Shown piece by piece: positions 95-3,727 of a stretch of 20,895 nucleotides of DNA. Origin of the DNA: a virus (lineage: Duplodnaviria; Heunggongvirae; Uroviricota; Caudoviricetes); IMG/VR virus record IMGVR_UViG_2671180460_000003, positions 1 to 20,895 of that record, one strand, 5' to 3'. A program made the translations under genes and the position numbers. Each line of letters starts with the position of its first letter. Position 1 is the first letter of the stretch. The notes beneath the pieces are model-generated. The model worked only from the letters and a program-made list of their open reading frames with translations, was not told the origin of the DNA and ran no database searches.

Positions 95-472
95 ATGCCC
101 GGTAAATTCAGATTCAGTCGCCGAAGTGAGAAAAATCTGGAGGGCGTCAAACCACAGTTGGTTGCTGTAGTTCGCCGTGCGCTGGAGCTGACGGAGGTTG
201 ATTTCGGTATTACGGAAGGCCTGCGCAGTAAGTATCGCCAGAAACAGCTGGTTGCAGAAGGCAAGAGCCAGACCATGAACAGCCGCCACCTGACCGGTGA
301 TGCGGTGGATGTTGTGGCCTACATTGGCAGCCAGGTGTCATGGGACTGGCCTCTGTACGAGAAAATCGCGCAGGCATTTAAGCAGGCTGCCGCAGAGCTG
401 GGAACTGCCATCGAATGGGGCGGGGACTGGAAAACACTGAAAGACGGACCTCACTTTCAGTTGAAGCGCTAA
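95..472 (+). CDS. Endolysin, peptidase M15 family (L-alanyl-D-glutamate peptidase type)
   Basis: Translation contains SRHLTGDAVDVV and a C-terminal GPHFQL, matching the zinc-binding H-x6-D ... H signature of M15 phage endolysins. GGAGG at 85-89 gives ATG 95 a 5-nt spacer; the in-frame GTG at 89 given by the ORF track overlaps that RBS and is less likely. Confidence 0.85.
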   Translation: MPGKFRFSRRSEKNLEGVKPQLVAVVRRALELTEVDFGITEGLRSKYRQKQLVAEGKSQTMNSRHLTGDAVDVVAYIGSQVSWDWPLYEKIAQAFKQAAAELGTAIEWGGDWKTLKDGPHFQLKR

Positions 473-486
473 TAACCAGGTGGTTT

Positions 487-669
487 ATGAACAGAAAACA
501 CTGGACACACAGAATGCCGCGAACGGCGGCGAAATGGGCACTGGTAGCGATACTGGTGCCTTTTTTATTGGTGGGATGCGTCAGTCTGGATAAGGCGCGC
601 CAGCTTTTCGATACCGCGTTTCAGGTCTGCCAGCTTATTGATGGCGTTCGACTGTGTACGCAGAACTGA
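487..669 (+). CDS. Small putative lipoprotein (possible degenerate o-spanin or lysis accessory protein)
   Basis: MNRKHWTHRMPRTAAKWALVAILVPFLLVGC: basic n-region, hydrophobic core and an L-V-G-C lipobox, followed by a roughly 30-aa Cys-containing mature part. AGGTGG at 478-483 precedes ATG 487. Sits directly after the endolysin. Too short and not proline-rich for a canonical Rz1. Confidence 0.45.
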   Translation: MNRKHWTHRMPRTAAKWALVAILVPFLLVGCVSLDKARQLFDTAFQVCQLIDGVRLCTQN

Positions 670-672
670 TCA

Positions 673-710
673 CCAGCATTACAGCAGCCCTTCAGTGTGA
701 GGGGCTGCGA
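673..710. terminator. GC-rich hairpin between convergent genes (possible bidirectional terminator)
   Basis: GCAGCCC (684-690) pairs with GGGCTGC (702-708) around an 11-nt loop, between the stop of the + strand lipoprotein ORF (669) and the stop of the - strand ORF (718). No clean U-tract on either strand, so this is weak. Confidence 0.3.
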
Positions 711-717
711 TAATGTT

Positions 718-930
718 TTAGTTATCTTTTATGAATCCGTTAACGGCCCATCCGACCAGTCTGAGTATGCCGTATGTCAGTAAGGCACATACCAGGGAAA
801 CTAATACAGCAAATAACGAGATTCCTGTACCAGCACCTGTTAATAAAAAGAAACCAAAGCTCAACATCAACACCAAAATAGCCAACAGAACGCCTGTCCG
901 GTGAAATCCTTTTGAAATAGTATTTTTCAT
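718..930 (-). CDS. Small membrane protein, two predicted transmembrane helices, unknown function (moron candidate)
   Basis: 70-aa ORF MKNTISKGFHRTGVLLAILVLMLSFGFFLLTGAGTGISLFAVLVSLVCALLTYGILRLVGWAVNGFIKDN with two hydrophobic segments. On the minus strand GGAG lies 5 nt upstream of the ATG. It is the only reverse-strand gene in the window and lies in a visibly AT-richer stretch. Confidence 0.55.
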   Translation of the reverse strand: MKNTISKGFHRTGVLLAILVLMLSFGFFLLTGAGTGISLFAVLVSLVCALLTYGILRLVGWAVNGFIKDN

Positions 931-989
931 TTGTTCTCCGTATAGGTTTTTAAGGAATGGTTATTTTACCATCAGGAGAGTGAAATTCT

Positions 990-1340
990 ATGCCATCACG
1001 GATCCCCCGCGCATGCCGTAAGCGAGGCTGCGCAGGCACAACGACAGACAGTTCTGGCTACTGCGATAAACATCGTGGTGAAGGCTGGGCACAGCACCAG
1101 CGCGGACTGAGCCGCCACCAGCGTGGTTATGGCTCAAAATGGACGGTGATTCGTGCCCGTATTCTGAAGCGCGATAAAGGTCTGTGTCAGTTGTGTCTGC
1201 GTGTCGGTGTGGTGAGCGAGGCGAAAACTGTCGACCACATCATCCCGAAAGCGCATGGCGGAACAGACGCAGACAGCAACCTGCGGAGTCTGTGCTGGCC
1301 CTGCCACAAAGAGAAAACAGCGCGCGAACGAATCAAGTGA
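990..1340 (+). CDS. HNH homing-type endonuclease, terminase-associated
   Basis: C-x2-C pairs (CRKRGC, CQLC, CWPC) plus DHIIPKAHGG...N...H form the HNH/zinc-finger core. Located immediately upstream of the terminase small subunit, as in cos-type HK97-like phages. Confidence 0.9.
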   Translation: MPSRIPRACRKRGCAGTTTDSSGYCDKHRGEGWAQHQRGLSRHQRGYGSKWTVIRARILKRDKGLCQLCLRVGVVSEAKTVDHIIPKAHGGTDADSNLRSLCWPCHKEKTARERIK

Positions 1341-1487: not shown

Positions 1488-1970
1488 ATGTCAGGACCCC
1501 CGAAAACCCCGCCACGCCTGCATTTGATTCGAGGCAACCCCTCGAAGCGCCCCGTTAAAGACCACAAAAAAACCGCTAAAAAGGATGAAAAAGGTCTCCC
1601 TAAAATTCCGCAACATTTAGGGGCGCAGGGGAAGTACTGGTTCAGGCGAATGGCGGAAGAGCTGAATGCGGAAGGGATCATTTCTCAGCTTGATGCGCGT
1701 GCACTCGAGTTACTGGTGGAAGCCTACACCGAATACCGGCATCACTGCGAAACACTCGATGCTGAGGGTTATACCTACCGCACGGAAACGCAGAATGGCG
1801 ATGTGATGATCAAGGCACATCCGGCTGCGGCGATGAAAGCGGATGCCTGGAAGCGGATCCGGGCGATGCTTGCAGAGTTTGGTATGTCACCGGCAAGCCG
1901 GGCGAAAGTAAATACCGCCGGACCGGATGATGTTGATCCGCTGGCGGAACTTTTAAAAGCGAGAGACTGA
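1488..1970 (+). CDS. Terminase small subunit (P27 family)
   Basis: 160-aa protein with a basic N-terminus (KRPVKDHKKTAKKDEKG) and sequence character of P27-type small terminases. Directly upstream of, and overlapping by 1 nt (TGATG), the large terminase gene. Confidence 0.88.
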   Translation: MSGPPKTPPRLHLIRGNPSKRPVKDHKKTAKKDEKGLPKIPQHLGAQGKYWFRRMAEELNAEGIISQLDARALELLVEAYTEYRHHCETLDAEGYTYRTETQNGDVMIKAHPAAAMKADAWKRIRAMLAEFGMSPASRAKVNTAGPDDVDPLAELLKARD

Positions 1971-3727
1971 TGGCAAAAGTGGCTGACGGGATCCGCTACG
2001 CCGAACGTGTTGTTGCAGGAGAAATTGTCGCTGGCGAATTTGTCCGTCTGGCCTGCCAGCGTTTTCTTGATGATCTGAAGTACGGCGAAGAGCGGGGGAT
2101 TTATTTCAGTGAACCCCGTGCGCAGCACATCCTGAATTTCTACAAATTTGTGCCCCATGTAAAAGGGGCGCTGGCAGGTCAGCCCATTGAGTTGATGGAC
2201 TGGCATGTATTTATCCTCATTAATATTTTTGGTTTTGTCATTCCGCTGGTGAATGAAGAGACCGGGGAAGTTGTCATGCGCAGCGATGGCAGCGGACGCC
2301 CGGTGATGGTGCGCCGGTTCCGGACGGCGTACAACGAAGTCGCCCGTAAAAACGCAAAATCAACCCTGTCATCGGGTATCGGTCTGTATATGACGGGGGC
2401 AGATGGTGAAGGCGGGGCTGAGGTGTATTCAGCCGCAACCACGCGTGACCAGGCCAGAATCGTGTTTGAAGACGCCAAAAATATGGTCAGAAAAGCCCGG
2501 TCGACACTCGGGCGGTTGTTTGATTTCAACAAGCTGGCGATTTACCAGGAGCAGAGCGCATCAAAATTTGAACCGCTTTCCTCGGATGCAAACAACCTGG
2601 ACGGTCTGAACATCCACTGCGCCATTATTGATGAGCTGCATGCACATAAAACCCGCGACGTGTGGGACGTTCTGGAAACGGCAACCGGTGCCCGTCTGCA
2701 GTCCCTGTTATTTGGTATCACCACGGCGGGCTTTAACAAGGAAGGGATTTGTTACGAGCAACGCGATTACGCCATCAAGGTATTGCGAGGCTATAACAGC
2801 GACGTGGAGGGCGCGGTAAAAGACGACTCCTACTTTGCGATTATTTACACGCTCGATGAGGGAGATGATCCGTTTGATGAAACGGTCTGGCAGAAAGCGA
2901 ATCCGGGCCTGGGCATCTGTAAACGCTGGGATGATCTGCGTCGTCTGGCGAAAAAAGCGAAGGAGCAGGTCTCGGCGCGGGTGAATTTTTTCACCAAACA
3001 CATGAATGTGTGGGTCACTGCCGAATCGGCCTGGATGGACATGATTAAGTGGGAGAAGTGCGAATACATCGCTCCACAGCATGAGCTGAAAACGTATCCC
3101 ATGTGGGTCGGCGTCGACCTTGCTCATAAGATTGATATCTGTGCGGCGGCAAAACTCTGGCGAACGGATAACGGGCATGTTCATGCCGATTTTAAATTCT
3201 GGCTTCCGGAAGGGCGACTGGAACGGTGTTCACGGCAGCAGGCAGAACTTTACCGGAAGTGGGCGGAGATAGATAAGCTCATCCTGACGGATGGTGATGT
3301 TATCGATCATGCTCAGATAAAAAGTGACTTACTGGAATGGATTGGTGGTGAAAATCTGAGGGAACTGGGATTTGACCCGTGGAGTGCGATGCAGTTCAGC
3401 CTGGCACTGGCTGAAGAAGGGATACCGCTGGTGGAGGTTCCGCAGACGGTCCGCAATCTGTCAGAGGCCATGAAGGAAACGGAATCACTGGTCTATGCCG
3501 GACGTTTCCACCACAGCAATCACCCGGTCATGAACTGGATGATGTCTAACGTTACGGTGAAACCGGATAAAAACGACAATATCTTCCCGAATAAATCCAC
3601 GCCGGAAGCCAAAATCGACGGTCCTGTTGCGATGTTTACAGCAATGAGCCGGATGCTGGTCAATGGCGGTGAACCGGAGCCGGATCTGTCTGAGCATCTG
3701 GTCAGCGTTGGTATCCGCTCGCTTTAA
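1970..3727 (+). CDS. Terminase large subunit (Terminase_1 / HK97-like)
   Basis: 585-aa ORF, the size and position expected for terL: N-terminal ATPase region followed by a C-terminal nuclease region. Sits between terS and the portal gene. Confidence 0.93.

What the first reader, a model, noticed from the sequence alone, without database searches (positions are those of the whole stretch)
473..990. AT-rich island between lysis and packaging modules with a reverse-strand small membrane protein
The whole window is one co-directional late operon except for a 70-aa two-helix membrane protein on the minus strand (718-930) with its own RBS, sitting in a stretch that is clearly AT-richer by eye than the flanking genes. 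It converges on a small lipoprotein gene (487-669), with a GC hairpin between them. Opposite orientation, own translation signals and a compositional shift are the hallmarks of a moron acquired independently of the structural genes. Small two-TM proteins in this position could be superinfection-exclusion factors, membrane toxins, or antiholin-like lysis regulators; I cannot tell which from sequence alone.
Basis: partly seen in the sequence, partly recalled or inferred. Interest (0 to 1): 0.55.

Follow-up and report, generated by a model that had tools for sequence, protein, structure and literature searches.

The report
Prophage moron encoding small membrane protein
A roughly 300-base AT-rich insert in an E. 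coli prophage carries one backwards-facing gene for a 70-residue, two-helix inner-membrane protein; the element is an ordinary prophage add-on gene ("moron"), but its protein belongs to a large family that no database has named or characterised.

Summary
ORF 718-930(-) is a real gene: it is intact in 8 diverged homologues, with dN/dS 0.12-0.33 in its own frame only. It is the only minus-strand gene in the window. It sits in the lowest-GC stretch of the 20.9 kb window (716-989, GC 0.38 against 0.525).

The island is narrower than reported. The lipoprotein gene 487-669 has backbone composition and is conserved lysis-cassette backbone; its phiP27 orthologue has been called an o-spanin. The hairpin 684-708 is mainly a plus-strand terminator and is also present in phiP27, which lacks the gene.

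Related prophages show a clean presence/absence polymorphism. E. coli A10 lacks 670-977 and phiP27 lacks 716-989. Only 16 of 5426 complete E. coli genomes carry the gene, always antisense and just upstream of the packaging genes. A promoter-like block (TAGAAy-N16-TGnTAAAAT) is conserved in all of them.

The product is a probably N-in/C-in helical hairpin. It defines an unnamed family of at least 435 proteins with the signature FHRxG...Y...GWxxxGF, found on mobile elements. Distant members occupy the same antisense slot in other lambdoid phages.

The moron reading is supported and the antiholin reading is disfavoured. The function, probably lysogen-expressed exclusion or defence at the inner membrane, remains inferred.

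The parts
95..472 (+). Context: M15-family endolysin, the last enzyme of the lysis cassette.
   Evidence: Pfam Peptidase_M15_4 at E 1.5e-12 and phrog_465 endolysin at E 5.6e-75. It is 87-92% identical to phiP27 and E. coli prophage orthologues.
487..669 (+). Backbone gene, not part of the island: a 60-aa outer-membrane-type lipoprotein with lipobox LVGC and a 30-aa mature peptide. It is the orthologue of the phiP27 gene that Kongari et al. listed as a 'separated o-spanin'.
   Evidence: phrog_7528 at E 1.5e-34. Weak NCBIfam spanin2_1 hit at E 0.06. GC 0.525. Present in all 13 related loci checked and in the 'empty-site' strain A10. The phiP27 o-spanin coordinates 20706-20861 correspond to this ORF.
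676..717 (.). Stem-loop with core 684-708. On the + strand it is followed by a U-rich tail, so it looks like an intrinsic terminator closing the lipoprotein/lysis transcript. On the - strand it lies 10 nt after the stop of the 70-aa ORF but has no U-tract.
   Evidence: Terminator scan hit on the + strand only. dG is -28.6 (+) and -23.5 (-) kcal/mol with z about -5.5. phiP27 has it without the minus-strand gene, and A10 lacks it.
718..930 (-). The moron gene: a 70-aa helical-hairpin inner-membrane protein, predicted N-in/C-in. Family signature residues are F9 H10 R11 G13 before TM1, and Y53 ... W61 ... G65 F66 at and after the end of TM2.
   Evidence: Purifying selection in this frame only. AF2 model H2-31/H39-66 at pLDDT 81. 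Hydropathy and charge distribution. Family alignments A4 and A5. 100 cluster representatives at E<=1e-3 and 435 proteins.
936..939 (-). Shine-Dalgarno GGAG, five bases upstream of the ATG at 930.
   Evidence: Read directly from the minus-strand sequence. Conserved as GGAG or GGAA in all homologous loci.
963..990 (-). Predicted sigma-70 promoter of the moron. It has a -35-like TAGAAT (985-990), a 16-nt spacer, and an extended -10 TGgTAAAAT (963-971). The inferred transcription start is near 956. The -35 element abuts the HNH start codon on the other strand.
   Evidence: The block TAGAAy-N16-TGnTAAAAT is conserved in 12 of 12 loci, with only the n varying. That includes the HNH-less lambda-terminase prophages, where the sequence further upstream is unrelated. 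The generic hexamer scan did not flag it. There are no expression data.
990..1340 (+). Context: HNH endonuclease, the first gene of the packaging module (HNH, cos, P27-type terS, terL).
   Evidence: Pfam HNH at E 6.7e-16 and phrog_144. phiP27 annotates HNH followed by the cos-site.

Best explanation
Window 716-989 is a moron, a self-contained accessory transcription unit. It sits between the terminal hairpin of the lysis cassette and the HNH/terminase packaging genes of a phiP27-like E. coli prophage, in the same slot and orientation that bor occupies in lambda.

**Shown**
- The DNA is extra relative to close relatives.
- It is compositionally foreign.
- It has an evolutionary history separate from its flanks.
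- It encodes a protein under purifying selection.
- It faces against the late operon.
- It carries a conserved extended -10 promoter-like block and an SD.

**Inferred**
- The gene is transcribed by host RNA polymerase in the repressed lysogen.
- It is damped by convergent, antiterminated late transcription after induction.
- The product inserts into the inner membrane as an N-in/C-in helical hairpin. Two conserved juxtamembrane motifs, FHRxG and GWxxxGF, face the cytoplasm, and a short hypervariable loop faces the periplasm.

**Most likely role (inference only)**
The protein probably protects the lysogen at the inner membrane by a superinfection-exclusion or defence-type action. One possibility is interference with genome entry of incoming phages, directly or through a host membrane protein. 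This would resemble HK97 gp15, P22 SieA or T4 Imm in mechanism without being related to them.

My probability that it is a moron encoding a real membrane protein is about 0.9. My probability that the function is phage exclusion or defence is about 0.4. The confidence given for this entry (0.45) is for the whole statement, function included.
For: **Presence/absence**
- A10 and phiP27 are empty sites, and the region between endolysin and HNH is mosaic in the related loci.
- 16 of 5426 complete genomes carry the gene, against 321 with the flanks.

**Composition**
- 716-989 is the GC minimum of the window.

**Real gene**
- dN/dS is 0.12-0.33, with no stops in 8 alleles.

**Separate history**
- dS is about 1.0 against 0.1-0.25 in the flanks.

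**Position and orientation**
- In all 13 IMG/VR and Citrobacter loci, and in the annotated E. coli prophages carrying it that I inspected, the gene is antisense to the adjacent phage genes and lies directly upstream of HNH or of a Nu1-type terS.
- Family members at 23-31% identity sit alone on the opposite strand between lysis and terminase genes in two other lambdoid phage types (L025, L033/L035). Another sits alone on the opposite strand in a phage-like contig.
- Others sit in what may be a repressor operon, judged only from an adjacent HTH_3 gene, in phage-plasmid-like elements.

**Promoter**
- The promoter-like block is conserved even where the upstream context differs.

**Topology and family**
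- Basic residues flank the cytoplasmic ends, and acidic residues occur in the loop of homologues. Larger relatives carry 40-150-aa inserts, including Cys-containing ones, exactly at the loop.
- Invariant or near-invariant residues are F9, H10, R11, G13, Y53, W61 and G65.

**Precedent**
- The moron definition and the precedent of a small inner-membrane exclusion protein come from PMC3594210.
Against: - There are no expression data.
- The generic promoter scan did not call the site, and the -35 element is poor (3 of 6).
- The hairpin lacks a U-tract on the gene's own strand, so an 'own terminator' is not shown.
- There is no similarity to any known exclusion or defence protein. PADLOC gave none, and Pfam returned no Imm, SieB or YebO hit.
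- The exclusion function rests only on position, orientation, membrane location, allelic diversity and analogy.
- The conserved residues are cytoplasmic, whereas blocking of entry might be expected to involve the periplasmic face.
- Some family members lie in contexts with no phage genes.
Confidence: 0.45

Rival explanations
1. It is a moron, but its product is a lysogenic-conversion factor that tunes a host inner-membrane protein such as a transporter, sensor kinase or protease. This is how small E. coli membrane proteins such as AcrZ, MgrB or MgtS act. The benefit would be to host physiology or fitness, not phage exclusion.
For: The conserved motifs are juxtamembrane and cytoplasmic, which suits docking onto another membrane protein. 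The family is widespread, including non-phage contexts: next to a fimbrial operon and IS elements and in a chromosomal island. Its periplasmic inserts are highly variable. The precedent of small membrane regulators is my own background knowledge, and PMC3594210 mentions small envelope proteins.
Against: No partner gene is conserved next to it. The strong association with prophage accessory slots, and the very high allelic divergence relative to the flanks, is more typical of conflict loci. Nothing identifies a target.
Confidence: 0.25
2. It is a small membrane-active toxin, acting as an abortive-infection effector or an addiction-type (type I-like) toxin. Its expression or activation depolarises the membrane, and antisense late transcription or another factor controls it.
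For: It is small, very hydrophobic and has two TM helices. It lies antisense to a strong late transcript that could act as an RNA antagonist (inference from the gene order). It is carried on mobile elements, in one case near a ParE/YafQ toxin-antitoxin pair.
Against: - A good SD and an apparently constitutive promoter with no adjacent antitoxin or sRNA would be lethal for a toxin.
- There is no Rfam hit in 400-1600.
- There is no match to the Hok, Ldr, TisB, Ibs or Fst families in Pfam.
- Conservation is concentrated in specific polar cytoplasmic residues (H10, R11, Y53, W61), not in general hydrophobicity.
- Relatives tolerate large soluble inserts and fusions.
Confidence: 0.15
3. It is a lysis-timing component, such as an antiholin, pinholin or holin modulator, belonging functionally to the adjacent lysis cassette.
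For: It lies next to the lysis genes. Its two TM helices and about 70 aa resemble class II holins or pinholins in size.
Against: - It is on the opposite strand from the late operon.
- It is absent from most phages with the same holin-holin-endolysin-lipoprotein cassette, including phiP27, the DH5alpha prophage that carries this cassette (probably phi80; my inference, not stated in the record) and A10. Only 16 genomes carry it against 321 with the flanks.
- No holin Pfam family is hit.
- The C-terminus has only K68 and D69 instead of a charged tail.
- Family members occur in phage early regions, in phage-plasmid-like elements and in IS-rich, possibly plasmid-borne, contigs.
Confidence: 0.05
4. 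It is not a functional gene: a chance ORF in AT-rich spacer DNA, or a decaying remnant.
For: PGAP leaves it unannotated in 6 of the 16 complete genomes that carry it (confirmed for two). No database gives it a function.
Against: The ORF is intact with no stop in 8 alleles despite dS of about 1. dN/dS is 0.12-0.33 and wobble-position variability follows its frame. A profile finds a large family with invariant residues.
Confidence: 0.02

Closest known systems
Lambda bor moron (also in DLP12 and Stx phages)
   Same: It occupies the same genomic slot and orientation: a single small envelope-protein gene placed between the last lysis gene and the packaging genes. It is transcribed against the late operon and is expressed from the prophage. 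The position and orientation of bor are my background knowledge. The role of Bor is cited in PMC3594210.
   Different: Bor is a roughly 97-aa outer-membrane lipoprotein linked to serum resistance. This protein is an inner-membrane helical hairpin with no signal peptide and no sequence similarity. No Pfam hit other than noise was found.
HK97 gp15 (YebO-like), the prototype moron-encoded superinfection-exclusion protein
   Same: It is a small inner-membrane protein encoded by a moron with deviant GC content and its own promoter. It is expressed from the prophage and blocks genome entry without touching the outer-membrane receptor (PMC3594210). That is the mechanism I consider most likely here.
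   Different: - gp15 sits in the tail operon.
- It is related to the YebO family.
- It is not a two-helix hairpin (my background knowledge).
- There is no sequence relationship to this protein.
- An exclusion phenotype has not been tested here.
T4 Imm and P22 SieA/SieB (membrane superinfection-exclusion proteins)
   Same: They are phage-encoded inner-membrane proteins that act on incoming phage DNA entry. P22 SieA is described in PMC10883804 (listed; I saw only its abstract).
   Different: They are unrelated in sequence, with no Pfam or PADLOC match. SieA is much larger. T4 Imm is expressed by a lytic phage, not from a prophage accessory slot.
Class II holins / pinholins (for example S21 68)
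   Same: Similar size and two transmembrane helices, and a location adjacent to an endolysin gene.
   Different: The strand is opposite, the gene is not conserved with the cassette, there is no charged C-terminal tail, and no holin family is hit.
Pfam DUF6050 (PF19517)
   Same: It is the only database family that gave any score for the window protein (E 0.009).
   Different: The score is 16.7 bits against a cut-off of 27. Only 2 of 6 close homologues and 1 of 28 family members match, so the hit is compositional noise.

Membership tests
Moron (Juhala/Hendrix definition as summarised in PMC3594210) | Extra DNA between genes that are adjacent in related phages | tested here: met
   E. coli A10 joins window 669 to 978, and phiP27 joins 715 to 990. 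The flanks are 85-95% identical.
Moron (Juhala/Hendrix definition as summarised in PMC3594210) | [quoted passage not shown] | tested here: met
   GC is 0.383 against a window mean of 0.525 (sd 0.036), the minimum of the window. GC3 is 0.41 against 0.56-0.62 in the flanks.
Moron (Juhala/Hendrix definition as summarised in PMC3594210) | Own promoter | tested here: inconclusive
   TAGAAy-N16-TGnTAAAAT is conserved in 12 of 12 loci, including HNH-less phages. The hexamer scan did not call it, and there are no transcript data.
Moron (Juhala/Hendrix definition as summarised in PMC3594210) | Own terminator | tested here: inconclusive
   A stable hairpin lies 10 nt after the stop codon, but it has no U-tract on the minus strand. 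The hairpin is also present in phiP27 without the gene.
Moron (Juhala/Hendrix definition as summarised in PMC3594210) | Expression from the repressed prophage | not testable with these tools
   This needs strand-specific RNA-seq or a reporter in a lysogen.
Holin / antiholin (class II, pinholin) | Match to a holin sequence family | tested here: not met
   No holin Pfam or PHROG family matches at E<=1.
Holin / antiholin (class II, pinholin) | Co-oriented and co-inherited with the endolysin in the late operon | tested here: not met
   The gene is on the opposite strand. It is absent from phiP27, from the DH5alpha prophage with the same cassette and from A10, which all have that cassette. 16 genomes carry it against 321 with the flanks.
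Holin / antiholin (class II, pinholin) | Two TMDs plus a highly charged cytoplasmic C-terminal tail | tested here: not met
   Two helices are present, but after R57 the C-terminal tail carries only K68 and D69.
Known superinfection-exclusion / defence proteins (T4 Imm, SieB, YebO/gp15, PADLOC set) | Sequence membership | tested here: not met
   Pfam, PHROG, NCBIfam and PADLOC give nothing. Foldseek against BFVD and PDB gives nothing at E<=0.001.
Known superinfection-exclusion / defence proteins (T4 Imm, SieB, YebO/gp15, PADLOC set) | Reduced plating or DNA entry of superinfecting phage when expressed | not testable with these tools
   This needs an efficiency-of-plating (EOP) panel and adsorption and injection assays.
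Type I toxin-antitoxin toxins (Hok/Gef, Ldr, TisB, Ibs, Fst ...) | Sequence family and a cis- or trans-encoded regulatory sRNA | tested here: not met
   No Pfam toxin family is hit. There is no Rfam match in 400-1600 at E<=1.
Pfam DUF6050 | Score above the gathering threshold, shared by homologues | tested here: not met
   The score is 16.7 bits against 27. Only 2 of 6 close homologues and 1 of 28 family members match.
Two-component spanin, o-spanin subunit (for the lipoprotein 487-669) | Lipobox signal peptide and a short periplasmic domain, encoded in the lysis cassette | tested here: met
   The lipobox is LVGC with a 30-aa mature part. The gene is conserved after the endolysin in all relatives. 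The phiP27 orthologue is listed as a separated o-spanin (PMC6139136).
Two-component spanin, o-spanin subunit (for the lipoprotein 487-669) | A partner i-spanin gene embedded in, overlapping or adjacent to it | tested here: not met
   The phiP27 stretch that holds the proposed i-spanin (L001 2449-2937) is absent from the window. Here the endolysin stop (472) is followed directly by the lipoprotein start (487).

The most novel reading that the evidence does not exclude
The FHRxG...GWxxxGF two-helix module may define a previously unrecognised, widespread class of membrane-level anti-phage or exclusion proteins carried by mobile elements. The conserved cytoplasmic juxtamembrane motifs would form the effector or docking part. 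The variable periplasmic loop, from 6 aa in the prophage forms to 40-150-aa inserts and OB-fold fusions in relatives, would be the specificity part that meets the incoming phage. The E. coli moron would then be the minimal form of that system.
Probability: 0.2. Interest if true: 0.65.

Novelty: new member of a known kind. Interest (0 to 1): 0.4.

Why it matters
Morons are where prophages keep genes that change their host, such as toxins, serum resistance and phage exclusion. In close relatives of this prophage the lysis region, from just upstream of the holins to within the cassette, carries Stx2e, Stx2k or LT-II toxin genes. This moron adds a small inner-membrane protein whose family is large (at least 435 proteins), carried on mobile elements and sharply conserved at a few polar residues. 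The family is absent from Pfam, PHROGs, NCBIfam, PADLOC and from all 50,697 deposited phage genomes. If it proves to be an exclusion or defence factor, it would give a simple 70-residue, genetically tractable entry point into how phage genome entry is blocked at the inner membrane. If not, it is one more uncharacterised small membrane protein. The window also shows that the proposed phiP27 'i-spanin' is dispensable for this lysis cassette. That reopens the question of how this cassette breaches the outer membrane.

Tried and rejected
- **DUF6050 hit:** rejected as noise, because it is below the cut-off and not shared by homologues.
- **Sequence libraries:** PHROGs, NCBIfam and PADLOC gave nothing for the 70-aa protein. 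PHROGs on 53 family members gave nothing.
- **Structure route:** a PDB sequence-profile search gave only a marginal TM-helix match at E 0.036. The AF2 model is a plain helical hairpin, and Foldseek against BFVD and PDB gave nothing at E<=0.001, so fold comparison is uninformative here.
- **tblastn searches:** the window protein against deposited phages and plasmids gave no match. Three distant family members against phages gave no match.
- **Rfam:** no match on 400-1600.
- **Locus search with the broad alignment:** The search for related loci failed because no stretch was conserved enough. The genome-contig scan with the close alignment returned only one true locus, in Citrobacter braakii.
- **Literature:** a search for the N-terminal motif strings returned no paper.
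- **Plus-strand overlapping ORF 731-904:** rejected. It is open in only some homologues, and that frame has stops in 6 of 8.
- **The 70-aa protein as the missing i-spanin partner of the lipoprotein:** rejected. It has a 6-aa periplasmic loop, lies on the opposite strand and is absent from most cassettes.
- **Fusion partners of long family members:** these gave only tRNA_anti-like (OB) and DUF2569, with nothing for 10 others. They give no functional lead.
Full report
**What the window is**

The 5' end reads, on the + strand, as follows:
- the tail of a holin gene;
- an M15 endolysin (95-472);
- a 60-aa lipoprotein (487-669);
- an HNH endonuclease (990-1340);
- a P27-type small terminase (1488-1970);
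- a large terminase (1970-3727).

The DNA is about 92% identical to Stx2e phage phiP27 over the parts they share. The exact 70-aa and 60-aa proteins are recorded in E. coli assemblies as 'hypothetical protein'. The window is therefore the late region of a phiP27-like E. coli prophage.

**Checking the observation**

The ORF at 718-930(-) exists, and GGAG lies five bases before its ATG. Its product has two hydrophobic helices (AF2 model H2-31 and H39-66, pLDDT 81).

It converges on the lipoprotein gene, and a strong hairpin (core 684-708) lies between them. dG is -28.6 and -23.5 kcal/mol on the two strands, z is about -5.5, and none of 200 shuffles is as stable.

The composition shift is real but narrower than the reported range. 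The stretch 716-989 has GC 0.383, the lowest of all 274-bp windows in the 20.9 kb (mean 0.525, sd 0.036). The lipoprotein gene is at 0.525. No other credible gene lies on the minus strand, and a + strand ORF runs off the 3' end.

**Is the ORF a gene?**

I collected eight alleles at 51-67% protein identity from E. coli and Citrobacter prophages.
- None has a stop in this frame.
- Pairwise dN/dS is 0.12-0.33.
- Variable columns by codon position are 32, 20 and 51 of 63.
- Every other frame, including the overlapping + strand ORF, has stops in some or all alleles, and none has dN/dS as low in every pair.

It is a protein-coding gene under purifying selection.

**Is it an insert?**

- **E. coli A10 (empty site):** against this related prophage, the window aligns up to 669 and resumes at 978.
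- **phiP27:** the hairpin (676-715) is retained and is followed directly by HNH, so 716-989 is the extra DNA.
- **Mosaic region:** the stretch between endolysin and HNH is a mosaic hot spot with different optional ORFs in different relatives.
- **Rarity:** among 5426 complete E. coli genomes, 321 match the flanks and only 16 carry the gene.
- **Position:** where present, it is always antisense to the adjacent phage genes and immediately upstream of the packaging module. It lies next to HNH in phiP27-type phages. It also occurs in prophages with a lambda-type Nu1/GpA terminase and no HNH, where PGAP does not annotate it.
- **Separate history:** in E. coli relatives the flanking genes differ from the window by dN 0.01-0.02 and dS 0.1-0.25. 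The 70-aa gene differs by dN 0.21-0.29 and dS about 1.0. The cassette carries anciently diverged alleles that have been swapped into a much more homogeneous backbone.

**Signals**

Upstream of the ATG, all 12 loci compared share TAGAAy-N16-TGnTAAAAT, and only the n varies. In the window this is 990-963 on the minus strand. The conservation holds in the HNH-less phages, where the sequence further upstream is unrelated.

This reads as an extended -10 sigma-70 promoter with a weak -35. The generic scan, which requires two hexamers, did not report it. The promoter is therefore an inference from conservation.

The hairpin has a U-rich tail only on the + strand, and phiP27 has it without the gene. 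It is best read as the terminator that closes the lysis cassette. It may also end or stabilise the minus-strand transcript, but that is not shown.

Late, antiterminated transcription would run antisense through the gene and its promoter. From that I infer expression in the lysogen and damping during lytic growth.

**The protein and its family**

No curated library recognises the protein.
- Pfam gives only DUF6050 at 16.7 bits against a cut-off of 27, and the hit is not shared by homologues.
- PHROGs, NCBIfam and PADLOC give nothing.
- 50,697 phage genomes and 72,556 plasmids give no tblastn hit.

A profile of six close homologues finds 100 cluster representatives at E<=1e-3 among 1.8 billion. 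A broader profile finds 435 proteins, almost all unnamed.

The alignments show a sharp signature:
- an N-terminal (R/K)(I/V)S(K/R)GFHRxG immediately before TM1;
- a variable segment;
- TM2 ending in Y...R..GW...GF.

F9, H10, R11, G13, Y53, W61 and G65 are invariant or nearly so.

Basic residues flank the outer ends of both helices, and the short loop is neutral or acidic. In longer relatives the loop is replaced by inserts of 40-150 residues, some with conserved cysteines. This fits an N-in/C-in hairpin with a periplasmic loop.

Some relatives are fused to, or followed by, a membrane-anchored tRNA_anti-like OB domain or DUF2569. Fold searches with the AF2 model return nothing significant, as expected for a bare hairpin.

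**Where family members sit**

- **L025:** a 71-aa member at 31% identity lies on the opposite strand between holin/lysozyme/Rz-like genes and terS/terL of a different lambdoid phage. A 209-aa membrane protein follows it.
- **L033/L035:** a 66-aa member at 23% identity lies alone on the opposite strand between lysis genes and lambda-type terminases.
- **Other contexts:**
  - next to an HTH_3 repressor-like gene in phage-plasmid-like elements with SWIB and ParA;
  - alone on the opposite strand in a phage-like contig;
  - in a Salmonella phage as a tandem pair, one copy fused to the OB domain;
  - beside an integrase;
  - between a fimbrial operon and IS/Tn3 remnants.
- **Composition:** the enterobacterial members are also AT-richer than their loci.

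The family is thus mobile-element cargo that repeatedly occupies accessory slots of temperate phages.

**Mechanism**

*Shown:* this is a discrete, compositionally foreign, independently evolving cassette. It carries a real gene for a two-helix membrane protein, oriented against the late operon and preceded by a conserved promoter-like element.

*Inferred:* it is expressed in the lysogen from that promoter, and the product sits in the inner membrane with its conserved motifs on the cytoplasmic face.

*Most likely role:* protection of the lysogen at the inner membrane, that is, superinfection exclusion or defence. The reasons are:
- the lysogen-type orientation;
- the membrane location;
- the very high allelic divergence relative to the flanks;
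- the restriction to mobile elements;
- the precedent of HK97 gp15, a small moron-encoded inner-membrane protein that blocks genome entry (PMC3594210).

I put this at about 0.4.

*Alternatives:*
- A modulator of a host membrane protein (0.25) is favoured by the cytoplasmic location of the conserved residues.
- A membrane toxin (0.15) is disfavoured by the strong, apparently unregulated expression signals, the absence of any antitoxin or sRNA, and conservation of specific polar residues rather than hydrophobicity.
- A lysis regulator (0.05) is disfavoured by strand, distribution and the lack of holin features.

**Comparison with known systems**

The architecture matches the published definition of a moron on two tested criteria: extra DNA and deviant GC. 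It matches plausibly on a third, the own promoter. The terminator and prophage expression remain untested.

Positionally it is the counterpart of lambda bor, but it encodes an unrelated inner-membrane protein.

It is not a member of any holin, type I toxin, Imm, SieB, YebO or PADLOC family. All of these were tested and not met.

I rate it a new member of a known kind: a prophage moron encoding a small envelope protein. Its protein family is unnamed.

**Side result on the lipoprotein**

Its phiP27 orthologue (20706-20861) is listed by Kongari et al. as a 'separated o-spanin'. It is paired there with a 64-aa TTG-start ORF (20348-20542) as the i-spanin, the shortest spanin pair in their survey (PMC6139136).

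The stretch holding that i-spanin is absent from the window and from several relatives, whereas the lipoprotein is kept in every cassette. Either the i-spanin call is wrong or the lipoprotein works with another partner.

Noticed in passing
window 472-487; L001 (phiP27) 2449-2937: The lipoprotein (487-669) is conserved after the endolysin in every related lysis cassette. The phiP27 stretch that holds the published 'i-spanin' (a 64-aa TTG-start ORF, overlapped by a 90-aa reverse ORF) is missing here. This cassette therefore has an o-spanin-like lipoprotein with no recognisable i-spanin.
   Followed up: partly
window 19380-19700: This is the second-lowest GC stretch of the window (about 0.40). 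It lies at the junction of the tail-fibre gene's C-terminus (18274-19515) and the next ORF (19518-20063), which looks like a swapped host-range cassette. A further fibre-like + strand ORF starts near 20085 and runs off the window.
   Followed up: no
L007 993-2138; L001 1-998; L002 1-159: Close relatives carry toxin genes in or just upstream of the lysis cassette: LT-II enterotoxin A/B between the holins and the endolysin (L007), Stx2e upstream of the holins (phiP27) and Stx2k (phiSTEC1575). The lysis region of this phage group is a general cargo hot spot.
   Followed up: no
L007 and L008 4018-4224(-); hits H58-H63: In six of the 16 complete E. coli genomes that carry a homologue, RefSeq/PGAP annotates no gene at the site. 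The 68-aa ORF is intact in the two genomes I inspected.
   Followed up: yes
L009 2938-3186(-): In E. coli STEC306-308 the phage sequence ends inside this gene, next to hyaA. The last residues are replaced, giving an 82-aa ORF, while HNH, terS and terL follow intact. This looks like a truncated prophage.
   Followed up: no
L028 4995-6183: A Salmonella phage carries two tandem copies of the module on the strand opposite its neighbours. The second copy is fused through two more TM helices to a tRNA_anti-like OB-fold domain. Stand-alone fusions of the same architecture exist (P0012, P0026).
   Followed up: partly
window ~1400-1411: Homology to phiP27 stops at window 1409, which corresponds to the annotated 10-nt phiP27 cos-site (L001 4067-4076). 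The terS genes beyond that point belong to different alleles.
   Followed up: no
L033 7279-9234: A 651-aa AAA_15/AAA_21 ATPase gene lies on the opposite strand between Q and the holin, in the same prophage that carries a distant family member. It is a typical defence-type moron.
   Followed up: no
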